A stretch of DNA of 64,000 nucleotides, taken from the NCBI GenBank assembly GCA_000092065.1, contig CP000586.1. One strand, 5' to 3'. Positions 43,990-51,126 of the stretch are shown here, in pieces. The notes under the pieces were generated by a model. That model worked only from the letters and a program-made list of their open reading frames with translations. It ran no database searches and was not told the DNA's origin. Source of the stretch: Ostreococcus lucimarinus. Lineage: Eukaryota. Position numbers and translations under genes: made by a program. The stretch's first letter is position 1. Each line of letters opens with the position of its first letter.

Positions 43990-44033
43990 CGTTCCACTCG
44001 CCGCCGCGCGCGCGTCAGAGAGTGACGCGCGGC

Positions 44034-45443
44034 ATGGACGTCGACGACGACGACAGCGACGACGACGGCGCGCGAGCGCTCGCGAGCGCGCGTCCGACGC
44101 TGTGTTACCCGGGTCGGCTGACGTCGCGCCGAGAGTCGCGCGCGTTCGCCGACGCCGGCGCGCGCGGCGCGCACAAGGTTGGCGGCGCGCCGGTGGCGCT
44201 GACGGCGGACGGCGACGACGACGGCGACGACGGCGACGACGACGGCGACGCGGCGACGCGGTGGTACGCGCCGCGGTGCGCGTCGTGCGCGCGCGCGATG
44301 ACGCTCGTCGTGCAGACGTACGCGCCGAGAGGAGGTCGCGGACGGGCGCTGTACGCGTACGCGTGCGTCGGCGGCGGCGCGGCGTGTCGAGGAGACGACG
44401 CGTGGGCGTGCGTCAGCGCGACGTCGATCGCGGCGCGCGCGGACGCGAGCGAAGAGCGCGGGCGCGATGGCGAAACCACGACGCGCGACGGCGGTGGCTC
44501 GCGCGCGCGCGCGACGAACGGCGTCGAGACGTACGGGACGGCGGAACGCGCGCCGGCGATGGAGGACGCGTGGGACGATCCGGAATCGAGCGCGTGGTGC
44601 GACGACGGCGCGGACGCGGCGGCGCTGAGCGCGGAATTAGATGCCATGTTGGTGTGCGGGGTAGGGCGCGCGGAAGGACGCGCGGAAGGGCGCGCGGAGG
44701 CCGCGATGACGCCCGGCGACGAGGACGAAGACGATGGCGATGGCGACGACGACGCCGCGAGACAAGAAGACGGTTTTTCTTTGTCACGGATCGTGCGCGA
44801 GGCGTACGACGCGGCGTGCGCGACGCAAATAGTAGAATACCACCTCGTGTCCGAGATTGAGCCGAAAGCGGTCAGCGGGATGACGGTGAAGGAAGCGGCG
44901 CACGCCGAGGCGCTCCTGGCGCGATACGCCGAACGCGAAGGCGTCTCCGTGACGGACGTCGTCGCCATCGATGACGAGGATGGCGAGTGGGCGGGAGAGA
45001 CGTACGAGCGTGGCGAAGCACGACATGCGGATGATGCGTATTTAAAGTTCGCCCGCCGTCTGCAGCGCGCGCCTGATCAGTGCATGCGATACGACGTCGG
45101 CGGCATGAAGTTCATCTGGCCGACGAAGACGCCGCCACCGTCAACTTCGTGCGATCGCTGCGGCACCACGCGCGTGTGCGAGCTTCAACTCACTCCGGCA
45201 CTTTTGCGAGACGTTGAAGATGCGTTGTCGATGCACAAGGGCGATAAATCGCGCCTCGCGAGCGAAGAGGATCTCTTGGGCTGGGATTGGCAAACCGTCT
45301 GCGTGTTCGCGTGTCCAAACGACGCGTGCGTCGTCCCATCCACCGACGTGCATCGGAACGTCTCGTACGCCCTCGAGCGCGTCTTCGTGGCCGAGAGTGA
45401 GGCGCCTGGGGATGCCCTGCTCAAAGCCACTCGCGCGTCCTAA
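44034..45443 (+). CDS. PDCD2/Tsr4-family protein (PDCD2_C domain; no MYND finger).
   Basis: N-terminal 'YPGRLTS...KVGGAPV...RCASCARAMTLVVQTYAP'. C-terminal 'MRYDVGGMKFIWPT...CDRCGTTRVCELQLTPALL...DWQTVCVFACPNDAC' parallels the human PDCD2 'ILRYGRGG..PLWIS...CPCGAKRILEFQVMPQLL...DWGILAVFTCAESC'. ATG at 44034 (the track start is GTG). Confidence 0.7.
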   Translation: MDVDDDDSDDDGARALASARPTLCYPGRLTSRRESRAFADAGARGAHKVGGAPVALTADGDDDGDDGDDDGDAATRWYAPRCASCARAMTLVVQTYAPRGGRGRALYAYACVGGGAACRGDDAWACVSATSIAARADASEERGRDGETTTRDGGGSRARATNGVETYGTAERAPAMEDAWDDPESSAWCDDGADAAALSAELDAMLVCGVGRAEGRAEGRAEAAMTPGDEDEDDGDGDDDAARQEDGFSLSRIVREAYDAACATQIVEYHLVSEIEPKAVSGMTVKEAAHAEALLARYAEREGVSVTDVVAIDDEDGEWAGETYERGEARHADDAYLKFARRLQRAPDQCMRYDVGGMKFIWPTKTPPPSTSCDRCGTTRVCELQLTPALLRDVEDALSMHKGDKSRLASEEDLLGWDWQTVCVFACPNDACVVPSTDVHRNVSYALERVFVAESEAPGDALLKATRAS

Positions 45444-45555
45444 GCGCCGTAGCGTCGATGTTTGATGTCCAGAAAACTAGTAGTAGCGCACCAACTCGAA
45501 ATAACCGCCTCGCCTCACTCGACGACGCACGCGGTCGTCCAGTCGTCGCGCGCGC

Positions 45556-45903
45556 ATGAAGTGGACCGCGAGTAAGGTGTTCCAGTGCGTCACGTTGTTC
45601 CTCCTCGCATCAGCGCTCGAAATAGGCGGGTGCTACGGCTTTTGGCGCGCCGTGCGGTTGGAAAAGAACAAGTTGTGGGCGGCATTCGGCGCGGCCTCGC
45701 TCGTCGCGTACGGAGGCGTGTTTCTTTTAATGCCCATGGATGCGTTCGCTCGCATCATGGCGGCGTACGGTGGAGTGTTTATCGTTTCATCGTACGCGTT
45801 CGGGGCGGCGGTTGAAGGCTTCAAGTTGGACGCCGGCGACTACGTTGGCGCGAGCATCGCGCTAGCGGGCGTCGGCGTGTGTTTGTTCTGGCCGCGGGAG
45901 TAG
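45556..45903 (+). CDS. UPF0060/YnfA-family small membrane protein (bacterial-type 4-TM).
   Basis: 'AAYGGVFIVSSYAFGAAVEGFKLDAGDYVGASIALAGVGVCLFWPR' closely parallels the E. coli YnfA '[47 protein letters not shown]'. Confidence 0.75.
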   Translation: MKWTASKVFQCVTLFLLASALEIGGCYGFWRAVRLEKNKLWAAFGAASLVAYGGVFLLMPMDAFARIMAAYGGVFIVSSYAFGAAVEGFKLDAGDYVGASIALAGVGVCLFWPRE

Positions 45904-45977
45904 AACACAGGATTCTAGAATCAATCTATGTACAAACAATACGTATAGCTAGATACTACTGGTGATCACCCTATCGA

Positions 45978-46748
45978 CTACAGGAACGGTTTAAACGCGC
46001 GCGGCCGTATCTCAATCTTGCTCTTGCACCACGGACATCGCCGCTTGACTTTTGGCACCTGCCAAACGCGCTGTGCGCAATCGCCGCACTGCCGCACGTG
46101 CTGGCACGGATAAAACATGTGCCGCACCACGCCCTCGGCGTCGTCGAACTGCGTGAGGCAGATCCCACACTCTTCGTGATTTCCACTCATGACGCGCAAA
46201 TCGAATTGAACGCTCGACGGCGCGACGCCCTCGACGTCCGCCACCGCCGCGTCGACGTCCATCGTCTCTTCCTCTTCTTTTTCTACCACGGCGTCCGTCT
46301 GCGTCGAAGCATTCACCACGCTTGATTTCACGCCGCCATCGCTTCGCTTCACGAGCGGTGCGTTCGTGACGTCGCTCAGAAGCCCGGTCGTTTGGCGCCG
46401 TCGCTTAAAGTCATTCTGCGCGCGCGTCTGCGCGTGCTCGTTCCGTCGTTTCGCCGCCGCGAGCGCGCCGAGGACGCCACCGGATGACTTCACGGTCGTT
46501 GAAGCTTCGCACGAAGTCAACGCATCCGTCGCTTCCGCGTCCGCGGCGTCGCTCGCGCTCGCATTCCGACCCGCTTCGAGCGCGCGCGACCGCTCGACGC
46601 CGACCGTCGCATCGCCCGAACACTGCGCCGCGTGCGCCTCGATCAGGGCGACGTGCGCGAATTTCGAGCACAGCGGACACTGCGCCAGACGACTGCCCGC
46701 GTGCGAGTTCGAACGCGCGCGATCGGGGAAGGCGAGCGACGACGACAT
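45978..46748 (-). CDS. E3 ubiquitin ligase-like protein with a RAD18-type UBZ4 zinc finger and a C-terminal C3HC4 RING.
   Basis: UBZ 'CPLCSKFAHVALIEAHAAQC' (C-x2-C-x11-H-x3-C). RING 'CGICLTQF...YPCQHVRQCGDCAQRV...CPWCKSKI'. Confidence 0.6.
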   Translation of the reverse strand: MSSSLAFPDRARSNSHAGSRLAQCPLCSKFAHVALIEAHAAQCSGDATVGVERSRALEAGRNASASDAADAEATDALTSCEASTTVKSSGGVLGALAAAKRRNEHAQTRAQNDFKRRRQTTGLLSDVTNAPLVKRSDGGVKSSVVNASTQTDAVVEKEEEETMDVDAAVADVEGVAPSSVQFDLRVMSGNHEECGICLTQFDDAEGVVRHMFYPCQHVRQCGDCAQRVWQVPKVKRRCPWCKSKIEIRPRAFKPFL

Positions 46749-47175
46749 CGCGACCCCGAGGGCCGATGTGAAGAAAGAAATTCAAACTCGTTCGAGCTGT
46801 CGAGACGCGAAGCTCGAGAATTTTGTCGAGCGTCGTCGGCGTTCGTTCGTTCGTGCGCGCGTAAATAAGTACTGTGATAATTATTAATGAGGTATTAGTT
46901 TCAAGATCAACGGGATCCAATCTATAGACAACGCCGCCGCCGATGAAATAGAGCGGCGACGGAGACAACACGTTTCATTCAACACACAACACGCGGTACA
47001 GCCAAGATGATATATATAAAGAGGGCGCCAACGCGACTCGTTAAAAGCCACGCTCGCACCCGCATCAACACTGATTGATCACCTCATGATCTACTCGACA
47101 CTCGTCGAGCCGTAATTAAGTAAAGGACGGTTTTTTCAAGGTCAAAAGGGTCTTGAGATCACGAAGACTTCGGGC

Positions 47176-49461
47176 TTACGCCGTCTTGTCGTCGGCGTCC
47201 GCTTCATGCTCCATTTGCGCGAGGGCAAACGGAAACAAGATGGCAACAGAGGTGTAATCTTCAAGGGCGCAGCCGAGGATGTTTCTGGCGTTGCGCAATT
47301 CGCGGCGAACGTTGGCGACGCAGAAGATGAAGATGCAACAGAAGAGCCACGCGACGGCGTGCGTGTTCGCGCCGGCGTGCGTGGACGCCATCAAACCGAT
47401 GAAAGTCCAGAGAACGCCGGTGATGGCGGCGGCATTAATCATAGCAAACTGGTAGTCGGCTCCCATGGCGACCTTGGACTTGAGAATGGCGTCGAACGGG
47501 TAGATGAAGTTCTTCAAAACGCACAAAAGTCGTTCCATCTGCACGGGGGCGCTGGCGCCAGCCGTGTCCGGGTTGAAACGCTCGAGGAAGTCGAAGATGC
47601 ACGTGTTGAAGCCCTTGCGCTTGCGACGGTATTCTTCATCACCACCTTCATCTTGCAGTGCGCGCCAGAGCGCCAGACACATAAAGTTGAGCGCGATAGT
47701 GTAAGGGAAGCCGGCGACGATGGAGACGGCTTGAACCATCTTCAAACCACCGCTGTAGACGAGCGCACTAGCGAGCGCGCCTTCGGTGAAGCACCAGTAA
47801 ATCTTTTGCAAAACCGGCGGGCTTTCGTAGCCCATGGCAGAGATCAAATCGTCGACGTACGAACCAGAGTCCGAAGACGTGATGAAGTAAAGCGTGACGG
47901 CGATGAGGATCAAAGCTTGGAACGGGCGCGCCAAAGAACCGTACGGTTCGACGACGTCAAGGATGTGATCAGGACCAGCTCTGCAAGACAGTGGGTAGTA
48001 ACCAGCCTGTTGCAGTTGCAAACCGGCGGCGTATTTCGCCAACGTCGTGTCGAGCTTGCCCTTCGCATAGCCAAACGCGCTGCAGTCCACGGAGCCGCTG
48101 CCTTTCGACCAGTCAACAGTAGATGAGTCACCGAGGGCCAACTCGGCGACGCGTTGCATCTTGATCCCGAGAGAGCCGAGGACGGTGAGGTAGAAGAAAC
48201 CGAACAATACGGGCGCGACGAACGCACCCTTGATGAGTTGGCCGACGGTTCTGCCGCGAGAAATTCTGGCGATGAACATGCCGACGAACGGCGCCCAGGA
48301 GATCCACCAACCCCAGTAGAAGATGGTCCAATCGTCCATGAAATAGGGTGACGTCGTCGCACCATACATGTTTGCGGTGTCCGCGGTGTTGCCCGCGGTT
48401 GCGCTCACAGCGTCGATGATGTTCTTTTCCGCGTGGCGGCCGATGGCGTATTGCGTCCACGTTTTCGACGTGCTTTTCCACGTGCCGTCATCGTGAGTCC
48501 ATCCGTTCTTGCCACCCTTGAGGACGGCATTCAACACAGGCCAAGCATCGCAATCCCATCCGACGACGGTGACCCATTGCAAGTAGTGGCCGATGGATTG
48601 AACGACGCTGTTCATGAGAAACATGGGGTCGTCGGCACAGATGACGCCGAAGAGGAAGATCAAGCCGATACTGAAGGTGAGCTTGGACAGTTTCCTGATG
48701 CCATTCTTCAAGCCACTGACCACAGAAATGCAAGCGACGCCGGTGATGACCCAAATGATGAGACCCTTGGTCGTGTCGGATGTAGCGCTGATGTCGCTGT
48801 TGAGACGATTCATCGCGGTGGCGATCGTCGTGACGCCGAGTCCGAGAGACGTGCAAACGCCAAAGGTGGTGCACGAGATGGAAAGCGCATCGATCAAATC
48901 ACCGATGAGACCGTTGACGTTTTCACCCAAAAGCGGGTAGAAGGCCGCACGGATGGTCATGGGACGACCGTGACGGTAGCAAATGACCCCGAGCGTGATT
49001 GCGACCAGAACATAAGGAATCCAACCGTGGATACCCCAGTGGAACAGCGTCATGAAGATGGCTTGTTGAGCGCGTTGATCATCGTTCACGATGGGAATCT
49101 TTTGCGGATTGTAGTAGTTCATGCGGTAATACCACATCGGTTCGGCGACGCCGTAGGTGTACAAACCGACGCCGATTCCGCACGCGAACAACATGGAAAA
49201 CCACTCGTAATCGCTGAAGGCGGGCTTTTCGTCGTCACGCCCGAGCTTGACGTCTTTGTACTTCGTGAAAAGCAAACCGATGATGAAGATGAACCACACG
49301 TCTTGGGTGAGGATGTACAACCACGTCCAGTTGACGGTGACCCACGCTTGCCAACCCTTCACCTCCGTCGCGGCGTTGATGCCGGTCGTCGTGGCCCAGA
49401 TGATGAACCCCCAAAGCACGGCCGAGGCGATGCCAGAGCTCACCCAGTTCATGCGAAGCAT
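47176..49461 (-). CDS. BCCT-family transporter (betaine/carnitine/choline; glycine-betaine/DMSP-type osmolyte uptake) with a long C-terminal extension.
   Basis: BCCT signature 'TIFYWGWWISWAPFVGMFIARISRGRTVGQLIKGAF' plus 12-TM hydropathy. 761 aa, ATG start. Confidence 0.85.
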   Translation of the reverse strand: MLRMNWVSSGIASAVLWGFIIWATTTGINAATEVKGWQAWVTVNWTWLYILTQDVWFIFIIGLLFTKYKDVKLGRDDEKPAFSDYEWFSMLFACGIGVGLYTYGVAEPMWYYRMNYYNPQKIPIVNDDQRAQQAIFMTLFHWGIHGWIPYVLVAITLGVICYRHGRPMTIRAAFYPLLGENVNGLIGDLIDALSISCTTFGVCTSLGLGVTTIATAMNRLNSDISATSDTTKGLIIWVITGVACISVVSGLKNGIRKLSKLTFSIGLIFLFGVICADDPMFLMNSVVQSIGHYLQWVTVVGWDCDAWPVLNAVLKGGKNGWTHDDGTWKSTSKTWTQYAIGRHAEKNIIDAVSATAGNTADTANMYGATTSPYFMDDWTIFYWGWWISWAPFVGMFIARISRGRTVGQLIKGAFVAPVLFGFFYLTVLGSLGIKMQRVAELALGDSSTVDWSKGSGSVDCSAFGYAKGKLDTTLAKYAAGLQLQQAGYYPLSCRAGPDHILDVVEPYGSLARPFQALILIAVTLYFITSSDSGSYVDDLISAMGYESPPVLQKIYWCFTEGALASALVYSGGLKMVQAVSIVAGFPYTIALNFMCLALWRALQDEGGDEEYRRKRKGFNTCIFDFLERFNPDTAGASAPVQMERLLCVLKNFIYPFDAILKSKVAMGADYQFAMINAAAITGVLWTFIGLMASTHAGANTHAVAWLFCCIFIFCVANVRRELRNARNILGCALEDYTSVAILFPFALAQMEHEADADDKTA

Positions 49462-50139
49462 CTGCGATGGACGAACGGACGGCGCGAGTCAGTCTCGGGT
49501 CGTGATGATTTAATTTAGAGTCGCGTCGCCGGGACCGATCGAACGATCCACGATTCGCGCGCAACGCGAGACGCGCGCGTCTTCCGCCTCGCGCGACGCC
49601 GGCGTGGAGTCCACGAAATTTCAACGCACCGGTATTCCCGCGATATCGAGCGACACCCATCGGTTCGCTCGCACGAACCGCTTGATGTTTGCTTCTTGCT
49701 TGAAATCGAGCGCGTCATCCGCCTTGCTCGGCTTCGTCGTGTCGCTCATGTCGCCCCCGTTCATCGCGCGCGCGCTCGTCGAGGTCGACGGGATCGATGG
49801 AAATTATTCCAGCGACGTCCTCGCCGCGCGCCCGTCGCGAAGTGTCGCGCGCCGGCCGCGCGTCGCCGAATTCACGACGATTCAAACCGCGAATGACGAA
49901 AAAAAAAAGAGTCGTTTGCGCGATTTCCTGATATTTTTCTCATTCGAGGTTCACGATTCGACGACACCCCCTCCACGTCAGGTTTCCCGCGCGTTTTCGC
50001 CCGTCCGCGCGCGCGACGTCGACCACGCGCGCGTGGCTGATCGATGTCGAGCGATCGCGCGTCGCGTCGCGTCGCGTCGCGTCGGCACACGAAGGCGCGC
50101 GCGCGCGCCCGAGACGAGCGGTCAAACGTCGACCACGCG

Positions 50140-51126
50140 ATGATGCGGACGACGACGGCGACGACGCGGACGACGACGCGCGTCGCCGCGCTCGGCGCGC
50201 GCGCGACGGGGCGAGGACGAGGACGAGGACGCGACGCGCGGGCGCGGGCGAGCGGGGACGCGCAACGCGCGGGCGCGGACGGAGACGCGCGCGACGATGC
50301 GCGACGCGGCGGCGCGACGACGCGAAAGAACCGGCGGGGTTTGTTGGGCGCCGGGTTCGCGGCGGCGACGGCGGGGCTGACGGGGCTGACGCGCGCGGCG
50401 AACGCGGCGCCGACGCTGCCGAAAGAGCTCACGGAACCGGATGAAATCTTCCGAGAAGACTTCAACGTTCAGTTCGCGGGGTTGACGGTCGATCATAAAG
50501 ATTTAATCTACGCCCTGGTCGTCGGGCAGACGATCGGATTCGTCGGAAGCGCCGTCGGCGGCGCGGAGGCTCGTAAGCGCGCTGAGGAGATCGAACGGTT
50601 GAACTCGACGCTGCTGAAGGTGAACAAGGAAGTGCGAAAAGAGCTCAGGAGTAGTCAAGGGCGCAAAGTGGCGTTCTCCACGATGGATTCCTCGGACGAA
50701 GCTTCGAGCGAGACGGTGCTCGAAATCATCAGTTTGCTCAAGAGCGGCAAGTCTAAACTCAAAGCGCAAGCGTCCCAAGAGGCGAAAGAAACATTCACTA
50801 AGGCGCGTCAACTCATCGATGCTAACCAGAGCGCGCTGAAGGAACCGTGGAAGGCTGTTCGAAAGGCTGAGCGCGGTCTCGGCGCGGCGTCGGCGCGCTT
50901 GGGCGAGTACGACGAAGCCCTTTCTCACATGAAGACTGTGTTGAAGTTATCCACCGAGCACGACGACACGAGCGTCGCCACGGACGCGTGCGGCATAATA
51001 GCCGATATTTACGCCGAAATGGATCAAATCGAAGTCGCCGCGGATTGGTACGACAAGTATTTTGAATCCTTGGCCATCGAAGACGCCAAGGAAGCCGCCG
51101 AGGCGGGCTCGAGCTCGGCGCGTTGA
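50140..51126 (+). CDS. FLU: FLU (FLUORESCENT IN BLUE LIGHT) homolog; TPR-containing negative regulator of glutamyl-tRNA reductase and tetrapyrrole synthesis; plastid-targeted.
   Basis: 'IGFVGSAVGGAEARKRAEEIERLNSTLLKVNKEVRKE' and 'KAERGLGAASARLGEYDEALSHMKTVLKLSTEHDDTSVATDACGIIADIYAEMDQIEVAADWYDKYF' are collinear with the Arabidopsis FLU 'IGATVGGLLARQRKGELQRLNEQLRQINAALRRQ' and 'KAARGLGASLQRQGKYREAIQYHSMVLAISKRESEDSGITEAYGAIADCYTELGDLEKAGKFYDTYI'. The start is taken at ATG residue 33 (MMRTTTATT..., transit-peptide-like). Confidence 0.65.
   Translation: MMRTTTATTRTTTRVAALGARATGRGRGRGRDARARASGDAQRAGADGDARDDARRGGATTRKNRRGLLGAGFAAATAGLTGLTRAANAAPTLPKELTEPDEIFREDFNVQFAGLTVDHKDLIYALVVGQTIGFVGSAVGGAEARKRAEEIERLNSTLLKVNKEVRKELRSSQGRKVAFSTMDSSDEASSETVLEIISLLKSGKSKLKAQASQEAKETFTKARQLIDANQSALKEPWKAVRKAERGLGAASARLGEYDEALSHMKTVLKLSTEHDDTSVATDACGIIADIYAEMDQIEVAADWYDKYFESLAIEDAKEAAEAGSSSAR

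What the first reader, a model, noticed from the sequence alone, without database searches (positions are those of the whole stretch)
45556..45903. UPF0060/YnfA small 4-TM protein (a bacterial family) 1.3 kb from the BCCT transporter
Near-collinear match to the E. coli YnfA C-terminal half (AAYGGV...GVKL..YD..GA.IAL.G). This SMR/EamA-like family has no established function. Two bacterial-type membrane proteins, YnfA and BCCT, flank a host E3 ligase within 4 kb. That could be coincidence or a remnant of one transferred segment.
Basis: partly seen in the sequence, partly recalled or inferred. Interest (0 to 1): 0.5.

Follow-up and report, generated by a model that had tools for sequence, protein, structure and literature searches.

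The report
Ordinary algal YnfA-type small membrane transporter
The ORF is a real, full-length YnfA/UPF0060 four-helix membrane protein of the green alga Ostreococcus lucimarinus; it belongs to a widespread algal branch of that family, its closeness to the BCCT transporter looks like coincidence rather than a shared bacterial transfer, and the gene is already in public databases.

Summary

The same 90% cluster holds XP_001418336.1/A4RZH6 of Ostreococcus lucimarinus. A 2011 survey already counted one UPF0060 gene each in O. lucimarinus, O. tauri and moss.

The co-transfer idea is not supported:
- UPF0060 has a large eukaryotic branch: Coccomyxa, Trebouxia, Astrephomene, Tetraselmis, Bathycoccus-like contigs, a diatom and Chlorarachnion. 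The window protein carries that branch's markers, an N-terminal W-T and an x-G-D motif.
- All named BCCT relatives among the best 120 hits are algal.
- None of 80 bacterial or archaeal YnfA loci (up to 10 kb each side) holds a BCCT.
- Bathycoccus-like loci have UPF0060 in a different neighbourhood.
- Codon composition matches the neighbouring genes, and dN/dS is about 0.18.

Likely function (inferred) is a dimeric, proton-coupled exporter of small cations that uses the invariant Glu22. Bacterial relatives confer thallium(I) and dye resistance, so "no established function" is out of date.

Verdict: ordinary, already known, low interest.

The parts
45556..45903 (+). Complete CDS (115 aa plus stop) of a UPF0060/YnfA-family four-helix membrane protein. 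Its 90% cluster holds O. lucimarinus XP_001418336.1 / A4RZH6.
   Evidence: ORF list. Pfam PF02694 E 2.1e-23. NCBIfam YnfA 96 bits, below the equivalog cut-off of 114. Cluster membership. dN/dS about 0.18 against an 84%-identical Ostreococcus relative.
45568..45660 (+). Predicted helix 1 (aa 5-35). It holds the N-terminal W3-T4 extension typical of eukaryotic members and the buried Glu22.
   Evidence: AlphaFold2 model, mean pLDDT 95.4, helices at 5-35, 39-58, 64-87 and 93-111. Alignments.
45619..45621 (+). Codon GAA for Glu22. This is the invariant membrane-embedded glutamate, equivalent to E. coli YnfA E15, and by inference the counterpart of EmrE E14 as proton/substrate site.
   Evidence: Invariant in alignments A1 (24 sequences), A2 (82 sequences) and the 76-sequence euk/prokaryote alignment. 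The role of EmrE E14 is as described in PMC9295541. The equivalence to EmrE E14 is inferred, not aligned by HMMER.
45670..45729 (+). Predicted helix 2 (aa 39-58).
45745..45816 (+). Predicted helix 3 (aa 64-87) with the invariant R66 and Y71-G72-G73 motif. The profile aligns this stretch to EmrE TM3 (Y60/W63 region).
45832..45888 (+). Predicted helix 4 (aa 93-111). It is preceded by D92 and begins with G94-D95. G94 is present in all 36 eukaryote-type sequences and absent from all 40 prokaryotic ones examined.
44022..45443 (+). Context only: PDCD2_C-domain gene directly upstream (a eukaryotic family).
   Evidence: Pfam PF04194 E 2e-19. The order PDCD2-YnfA-RING is kept in Ostreococcus relatives L096, L097 and L102.
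45978..46748 (-). Context only: RING-finger gene, convergent with YnfA. Identical to XP_001418573.1 of O. lucimarinus.
47176..49461 (-). Context only: main exon of a BCCT transporter (761 aa) that belongs to an algal BCCT group. No evidence links it to YnfA.
   Evidence: Pfam PF02028 E 3e-142. All named relatives among the best 120 hits are eukaryotic: Mantoniella, Guillardia and MMETSP/EukProt transcripts.

Best explanation
The ORF is a functional nuclear gene of Ostreococcus lucimarinus for a UPF0060/YnfA-family protein. It belongs to a eukaryotic, mainly algal, branch of that family and is inherited within the Ostreococcus lineage. Its position near the BCCT gene is a chance neighbourhood in a very compact genome. 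The following are shown: family membership, four transmembrane helices, an SMR-type fold, an invariant buried glutamate (E22), purifying selection and host-like composition. The mechanism is inferred. Like other small multidrug resistance (SMR) proteins, two copies probably pair in the membrane, and the two E22 side chains form a shared site that binds either protons or a cationic substrate. Alternating access would then export the cation in exchange for protons. Judging from bacterial relatives, the substrate is a small monovalent cation (thallium(I)-like) or a small cationic organic compound. The membrane in which it sits is unknown. The protein has no N-terminal extension that could be a targeting peptide.
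Against: The eukaryote clade has only about 32% NJ bootstrap support on 110 columns, and the Ostreococcus and Bathycoccus-like sequences do not group together (23%). Monophyly and vertical descent across Mamiellophyceae are therefore not proven. The protein scores below NCBIfam's equivalog cut-off for bacterial YnfA, 96 against 114 bits, and it is the most divergent member of the eukaryotic group. For example it has GGCYGFW where the others have GGGWLVW. No transport, substrate, dimer or localisation data exist for any eukaryotic member. The Shigella phenotypes are for hydrophobic dyes and the fitness data are for Tl(I), so even the bacterial substrate is unsettled.
Confidence: 0.6

Rival explanations
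1. YnfA and BCCT are remnants of one bacterial DNA segment transferred into the alga, later split by insertion of a host RING gene.
For: Both families are far more common in prokaryotes, and the two genes lie within 3.9 kb. The order PDCD2-YnfA-RING-BCCT is kept in close Ostreococcus relatives.
Against: No BCCT was found within up to 10 kb of YnfA in 80 bacterial and archaeal loci. All named BCCT relatives among the best 120 hits are eukaryotic algae, and many carry a C-terminal PLAC8-like domain. The BCCT gene apparently has a spliceosomal intron. UPF0060 has its own eukaryotic branch with shared markers. Bathycoccus-like UPF0060 loci have no BCCT within 8 kb. The genes are on opposite strands. 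GC3 is host-like.
Confidence: 0.03
2. The whole eukaryotic UPF0060 branch descends from one ancient transfer from a bacterium, possibly Actinobacteria-like, into an early alga. It then spread by descent and by secondary endosymbioses. The Ostreococcus gene is a vertical descendant of that event. This concerns the origin only and is compatible with the best explanation.
For: The distribution in eukaryotes is patchy: green algae, moss, a diatom and a chlorarachniophyte, with none found in maize, rice, grape or spruce. The nearest prokaryotic sequences are actinobacterial at 44-50% identity. The NJ tree puts the eukaryote clade next to Actinobacteria.
Against: That sister relation has only about 10% bootstrap support. 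The family is short and highly conserved, so deep branches cannot be resolved here. Descent from the eukaryotic ancestor with many losses is not excluded.
Confidence: 0.35
3. The protein is not a transporter. It could be a small structural or accessory membrane subunit, or a decaying relic.
For: No eukaryotic member has been studied. The Ostreococcus sequence is divergent in TM1 and TM2 and falls below the NCBIfam equivalog cut-off.
Against: dN/dS is about 0.18 and the ORF is intact in several Ostreococcus lineages. Every family-invariant residue is retained, including the buried Glu22. The SMR fold is predicted with high confidence.
Confidence: 0.1
4. The ORF is bacterial contamination or a mis-assembly in the algal sequence.
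For: None beyond the family's prokaryotic bias.
Against: The same gene sits between the same eukaryotic neighbours in several independent metagenome and genome contigs. Its composition equals that of its neighbours.
Confidence: 0.01

Closest known systems
E. coli / Shigella flexneri YnfA (UPF0060, PF02694, COG1742; KEGG 'small multidrug resistance family-3')
   Same: Same Pfam family with a full-length match. 38% identity. About 110 aa with four TM helices. The TM1 glutamate (E15 in E. coli, E22 here) and the A-Y-G-G motif in TM3 are conserved. The K+R topology bias is near zero.
   Different: The window protein is encoded in a eukaryotic nucleus. It has a 7-residue N-terminal extension with a W-T motif and an x-G-D motif before TM4, both confined to eukaryotic members. 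It ends in F-W-P-R-E. It scores below NCBIfam's equivalog cut-off. Its function is untested.
Eukaryotic (algal) UPF0060 proteins, e.g. Coccomyxa viridis CAK0786617.1, Tetraselmis chuii A0A7S1SWG8, Chlorarachnion reptans EP00467_P025016, and Bathycoccus-like metagenomic genes
   Same: 45-56% identity. They share the N-terminal W-T, the x-G-D motif and a WPR C-terminus, and they lie among eukaryotic genes.
   Different: Many of the others carry 30-100 aa N-terminal extensions that may be targeting peptides; the Ostreococcus protein has none. Ostreococcus has diverged in TM1 and TM2 (GGCYGFW, VFLLMP). The chromosomal neighbourhood differs from that of Bathycoccus.
SMR transporters EmrE and Gdx (PF00893), antiparallel homodimeric proton/cation antiporters
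   Different: The sequence relation is marginal (E about 0.01). The window protein itself does not match PF00893. Dimer geometry, proton coupling and substrate are not shown for any UPF0060 protein.

Membership tests
UPF0060 / YnfA (Pfam PF02694) | Score above Pfam's gathering threshold over the whole domain | tested here: met
   83 bits against a cut-off of 24.9, E 2.1e-23, profile positions 3-106 of 107.
UPF0060 / YnfA (Pfam PF02694) | About 108 aa with four transmembrane helices | tested here: met
   115 aa. The AF2 model (pLDDT 95.4) has helices at 5-35, 39-58, 64-87 and 93-111.
UPF0060 / YnfA (Pfam PF02694) | Invariant TM1 glutamate and the TM3 A-x-Y-G-G motif | tested here: met
   E22, A69 and Y71-G72-G73 are invariant across 82 sequences, and E22 and the Y-G-G motif are present in E. 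coli YnfA.
Bacterial YnfA equivalog (NCBIfam NF002586) | Score above the curated equivalog cut-off | tested here: not met
   96.3 bits against a cut-off of 114. It is a family member but not an assured functional equivalent of enterobacterial YnfA.
SMR / DMT-clan transporters | SMR-type four-helix fold | tested here: met
SMR / DMT-clan transporters | Detectable sequence homology to PF00893 / EmrE | tested here: inconclusive
   The family profile against the PDB gives EmrE as its six best hits, but at E 0.011-0.034. The window protein has no PF00893 hit, and 6 of 82 relatives hit it weakly.
SMR / DMT-clan transporters | Antiparallel (dual-topology) homodimer | not testable with these tools
   Only indirect evidence. 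K+R bias is +1 for the window protein and averages 0 for the named eukaryotic members. E. coli YnfA is listed as a dual-topology candidate (PMC3962082). A model of the two-domain Coccomyxa protein was too uncertain to use (pTM 0.55).
SMR / DMT-clan transporters | Proton-coupled export of cationic substrates | not testable with these tools
   Bacterial genetics only: Tl(I) sensitivity of mutants and ethidium/acriflavine efflux.
Recently transferred bacterial gene segment (YnfA + BCCT) | Both genes nest within bacterial sequences, apart from other eukaryotes | tested here: not met
   YnfA falls in the eukaryote clade with shared markers, though support is weak. All named BCCT relatives among the best 120 hits are eukaryotic.
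Recently transferred bacterial gene segment (YnfA + BCCT) | The two genes are neighbours in prokaryotic genomes | tested here: not met
   0 of 80 prokaryotic YnfA loci with up to 10 kb flanks hold a BCCT, by tblastn at E<=1e-5. The sample is biased towards Actinobacteria.
Recently transferred bacterial gene segment (YnfA + BCCT) | Composition unlike that of the host genes | tested here: not met
   GC3 is 0.79 for YnfA and 0.75 for BCCT, against 0.77 for RING, 0.81 for PDCD2 and 0.70 for IPPT.

The most novel reading that the evidence does not exclude
Algal UPF0060 proteins may be single-domain SMR-type transporters that work as antiparallel homodimers. That would require the same polypeptide to insert in both orientations into a eukaryotic membrane, which has hardly been documented in eukaryotes. 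They would form an old, unstudied algal clade of cation (Tl+/K+-like or guanidinium-like) exporters. The near-zero K+R bias of the eukaryotic members and the tandem or fused paralogue pair in Coccomyxa are compatible with this but do not show it.
Probability: 0.2. Interest if true: 0.5.

Novelty: already known. Interest (0 to 1): 0.12.

Why it matters
It matters little for this locus. The gene is already deposited (XP_001418336.1 / A4RZH6) and carries a known Pfam domain. Its presence in O. lucimarinus and O. tauri was tabulated in 2011. The attractive idea of a two-gene bacterial transfer does not survive testing. The residual value is a reminder that UPF0060, usually treated as a bacterial family, has a sizeable and entirely uncharacterised branch in algae. 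Bacterial data (thallium(I) resistance, dye efflux) now give testable hypotheses for that branch.

Tried and rejected
(1) P0005, a 69%-identical 'relative', is an artefact. Its differences are all A->V, S->L/F, R->C/W and P->L/F, meaning C->T converted (bisulfite-type) reads of the same locus.

(2) I looked for synteny between the Ostreococcus locus and the Bathycoccus-like UPF0060 loci. There is none. Only a generic SET-domain similarity appears elsewhere in the window.

(3) L093 is a more distant Ostreococcus-like contig, collinear with window 49.6-57 kb plus BCCT. The 1 kb beyond BCCT shows no RING or YnfA similarity, but the contig ends there. Whether the adjacency is lost is therefore undecided.

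(4) The metagenome scan for close relatives returned only O. lucimarinus-like contigs at 97-100% identity, all with the same gene order. It gave no information on deeper synteny.

(5) A Biopython bootstrap timed out. I replaced it with my own NJ/Kimura bootstrap. Support for deep nodes is low, and no ML program was available.

(6) The structure model of the two-domain Coccomyxa protein, made to read the dimer geometry, had pTM 0.55 and was not interpretable.

(7) The AFDB fold library was unavailable.

(8) An Rfam scan of 45300-50200 found nothing credible.

(9) The 'conserved non-coding element' upstream of BCCT turned out to be an upstream exon.

Full report
**What is there.** Window 45556-45903 (+) is an ATG-initiated ORF of 115 codons. 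It matches Pfam PF02694 (UPF0060, YnfA family) at E 2.1e-23, 83 bits against a gathering score of 24.9, over profile positions 3-106 of 107. It matches NCBIfam's YnfA model at 96 bits, which is below that model's equivalog cut-off of 114. BLASTP against E. coli K-12 YnfA, read from NC_000913.3, gives 38% identity over residues 13-106 against 5-98, E 3e-12. The stated neighbours are right: a RING-finger gene at 45978-46748 (-) and a BCCT gene at 47176-49461 (-), whose stop codon is 1,273 bp from the YnfA stop.

**Where the window comes from.** The window carries long intron-poor eukaryotic genes. One is a 4,657-aa dynein-like heavy-chain ORF (identified by eye from its translation, not scanned). 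Others are a PDCD2_C gene and a tRNA isopentenyltransferase gene. The same 90% cluster as the YnfA protein holds XP_001418336.1 / UniProt A4RZH6, 'predicted protein [Ostreococcus lucimarinus CCE9901]'. The RING protein is identical to XP_001418573.1. The gene is therefore already in public databases.

**Is UPF0060 'bacterial'?** Mostly, but not only.
- A single-sequence search gave Ostreococcus-type proteins at 88-99% identity, then two 135-139-aa proteins at about 50%, then Actinobacteria at 44-50%.
- The two 50% proteins lie on contigs with eukaryotic genes in the order HSP70, SET, delta-9 desaturase, UPF0060, zf-CW/SET, SCAMP. For one of the two contigs, the neighbouring proteins fall in 90% clusters with Bathycoccus prasinos proteins.
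- An exhaustive representative search and a profile search found a large set of UPF0060 proteins, many with N-terminal extensions. The named members are all eukaryotic: Coccomyxa subellipsoidea and C. viridis, Trebouxia, Astrephomene, Tetraselmis chuii, the diatom Mayamaea, Chlorarachnion reptans, and other MMETSP/EukProt transcripts.
- In a 76-sequence alignment, all 36 eukaryote-type sequences, including the window protein, have glycine at window position 94 (x-G-D before helix 4). Most also have a W-T motif just before helix 1. None of the 40 prokaryotic sequences has that glycine.
- An NJ tree (Kimura distances, 110 columns, 500 bootstraps) places all 36 in one clade with the Ostreococcus pair inside it. 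Support is only about 32%, and Ostreococcus does not group with the Bathycoccus-like pair.
- Västermark et al. 2011 (PMC3111387, Table 4) already list one UPF0060 protein each in O. lucimarinus, O. tauri, Physcomitrella and poplar, and none in maize, rice, grape or spruce.

It is largely met, with the caveat that the tree is weak.

**Is the gene linked to BCCT?** The evidence says no.
- Eighty bacterial and archaeal YnfA loci, with up to 10 kb on each side, contain no BCCT homologue by tblastn at E<=1e-5.
- All named BCCT relatives among the best 120 hits are algal (Mantoniella, Guillardia, MMETSP/EukProt). Many carry a C-terminal PLAC8-like domain, which the window protein matches weakly.
- The Bathycoccus-like and other eukaryote-type UPF0060 contigs have no BCCT nearby.
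- GC3 is 0.79 for YnfA and 0.75 for BCCT. The adjacent RING, PDCD2 and IPPT genes have 0.77, 0.81 and 0.70.
- The order PDCD2-YnfA-RING(-BCCT) is kept in close Ostreococcus relatives, including one whose RING protein is only 84% identical.
- A more distant relative is collinear on the far side of BCCT. It shows no RING or YnfA similarity in the 1 kb beyond BCCT, where the contig ends. This result is inconclusive.

The two genes are on opposite strands and are separated by a eukaryotic gene. In a genome this compact, any gene has neighbours within a few kilobases. Coincidence is the better reading.

**Is it a working gene?** Against the 84%-identical Ostreococcus relative, dN is 0.066 and dS 0.37, giving dN/dS of about 0.18. 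All residues that are invariant across 82 family members are retained: E22, R66, A69, Y71-G72-G73, D92, D95, P113 and R114.

By analogy with EmrE and Gdx, I infer a dimer in which the two buried E22 carboxylates bind protons or a cationic substrate alternately and drive export. This is not shown for any UPF0060 protein.

Bacterial genetics supply the substrate leads. UPF0060 mutants are specifically sensitive to thallium(I) in Cupriavidus, Sphingomonas and two Pseudomonas strains, and the authors proposed a Tl(I) efflux pump (bioRxiv 10.1101/072470). A Shigella ynfA knockout is more drug-sensitive and effluxes less ethidium and acriflavine (PMC9295541). It remains true for eukaryotes.

The K+R bias across the membrane is +1 for the window protein and averages 0 for the named eukaryotic members. 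This resembles E. coli YnfA, which is listed as a dual-topology candidate (PMC3962082). That fits an antiparallel homodimer but does not demonstrate one.

**Comparison with known families, and novelty.** The protein is a member of UPF0060 and has the fold of the SMR family. It is not an assured equivalog of enterobacterial YnfA. It is already deposited and has been counted in a published survey, so I rate it 'already known'.

The only part with some wider interest is that the eukaryotic branch of UPF0060 is unstudied. If these single-domain proteins form antiparallel dimers, they would be a rare case of dual-topology insertion in eukaryotes. I give that about 0.2 probability.

**Verdict.** The family call is right and the co-transfer idea is not supported. 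This is an ordinary gene. Interest 0.12.

Noticed in passing
window 49462-49764 (minus strand): The BCCT gene seems to have an unrecognised first exon and an intron. A block conserved at about 82% in three Ostreococcus-type loci reads ATG...DIAGIP (40-45 codons, 49630-49764 or 49630-49749). It is followed by GTGCG, and a poorly conserved 168-nt stretch then ends in CAG directly before the ATG at 49461. The same GT...CAG layout is present in L093 and L094.
   Followed up: partly
window 47203-47376 (minus strand; BCCT aa 696-753): The C-terminus of the BCCT protein gives a weak PLAC8 (PF04749) match, E 2.6e-4, below the cut-off. Many algal BCCT homologues carry a PF04749 hit, which suggests a eukaryote-specific BCCT + PLAC8-like architecture.
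   Followed up: partly
proteins P0331, P0332 and P0180 (Coccomyxa): Two Coccomyxa gene models hold two UPF0060 domains in tandem. Another annotation has the second domain as a separate gene. Domain 1 groups with Trebouxia (93% bootstrap) and domain 2 with C. viridis P0180 (95%). These are either tandem paralogues or a true fusion, which bears on whether the dimer is parallel or antiparallel. The AF2 model of the fusion was too uncertain to use (pTM 0.55).
   Followed up: partly
L008 (Logan SRR847306 contig), protein P0005: An apparent 69%-identity homologue is the same O. lucimarinus locus assembled from C->T converted (bisulfite-type) reads. Such artefactual 'divergent homologues' sit in the protein collection.
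   Followed up: yes
L094/L095 6712-8997 versus window 47176-49461: A BCCT gene 78% identical in protein lies in a wholly different gene neighbourhood (WLM, SpoU methylase, DsbD_TM, P450). It still has the same upstream exon/intron layout. It is either a paralogue or a rearranged orthologue in another Ostreococcus-type genome.
   Followed up: no
window 45978-46748 (minus strand), RING protein aa 24-43: By eye, the N-terminus of the RING protein holds a second small zinc-binding-like motif (CPLCSKF.H..LIEAH..QC). It is conserved in the 84%-identical relative L096 and resembles UBZ-type fingers. I did not test it against any model.
   Followed up: no
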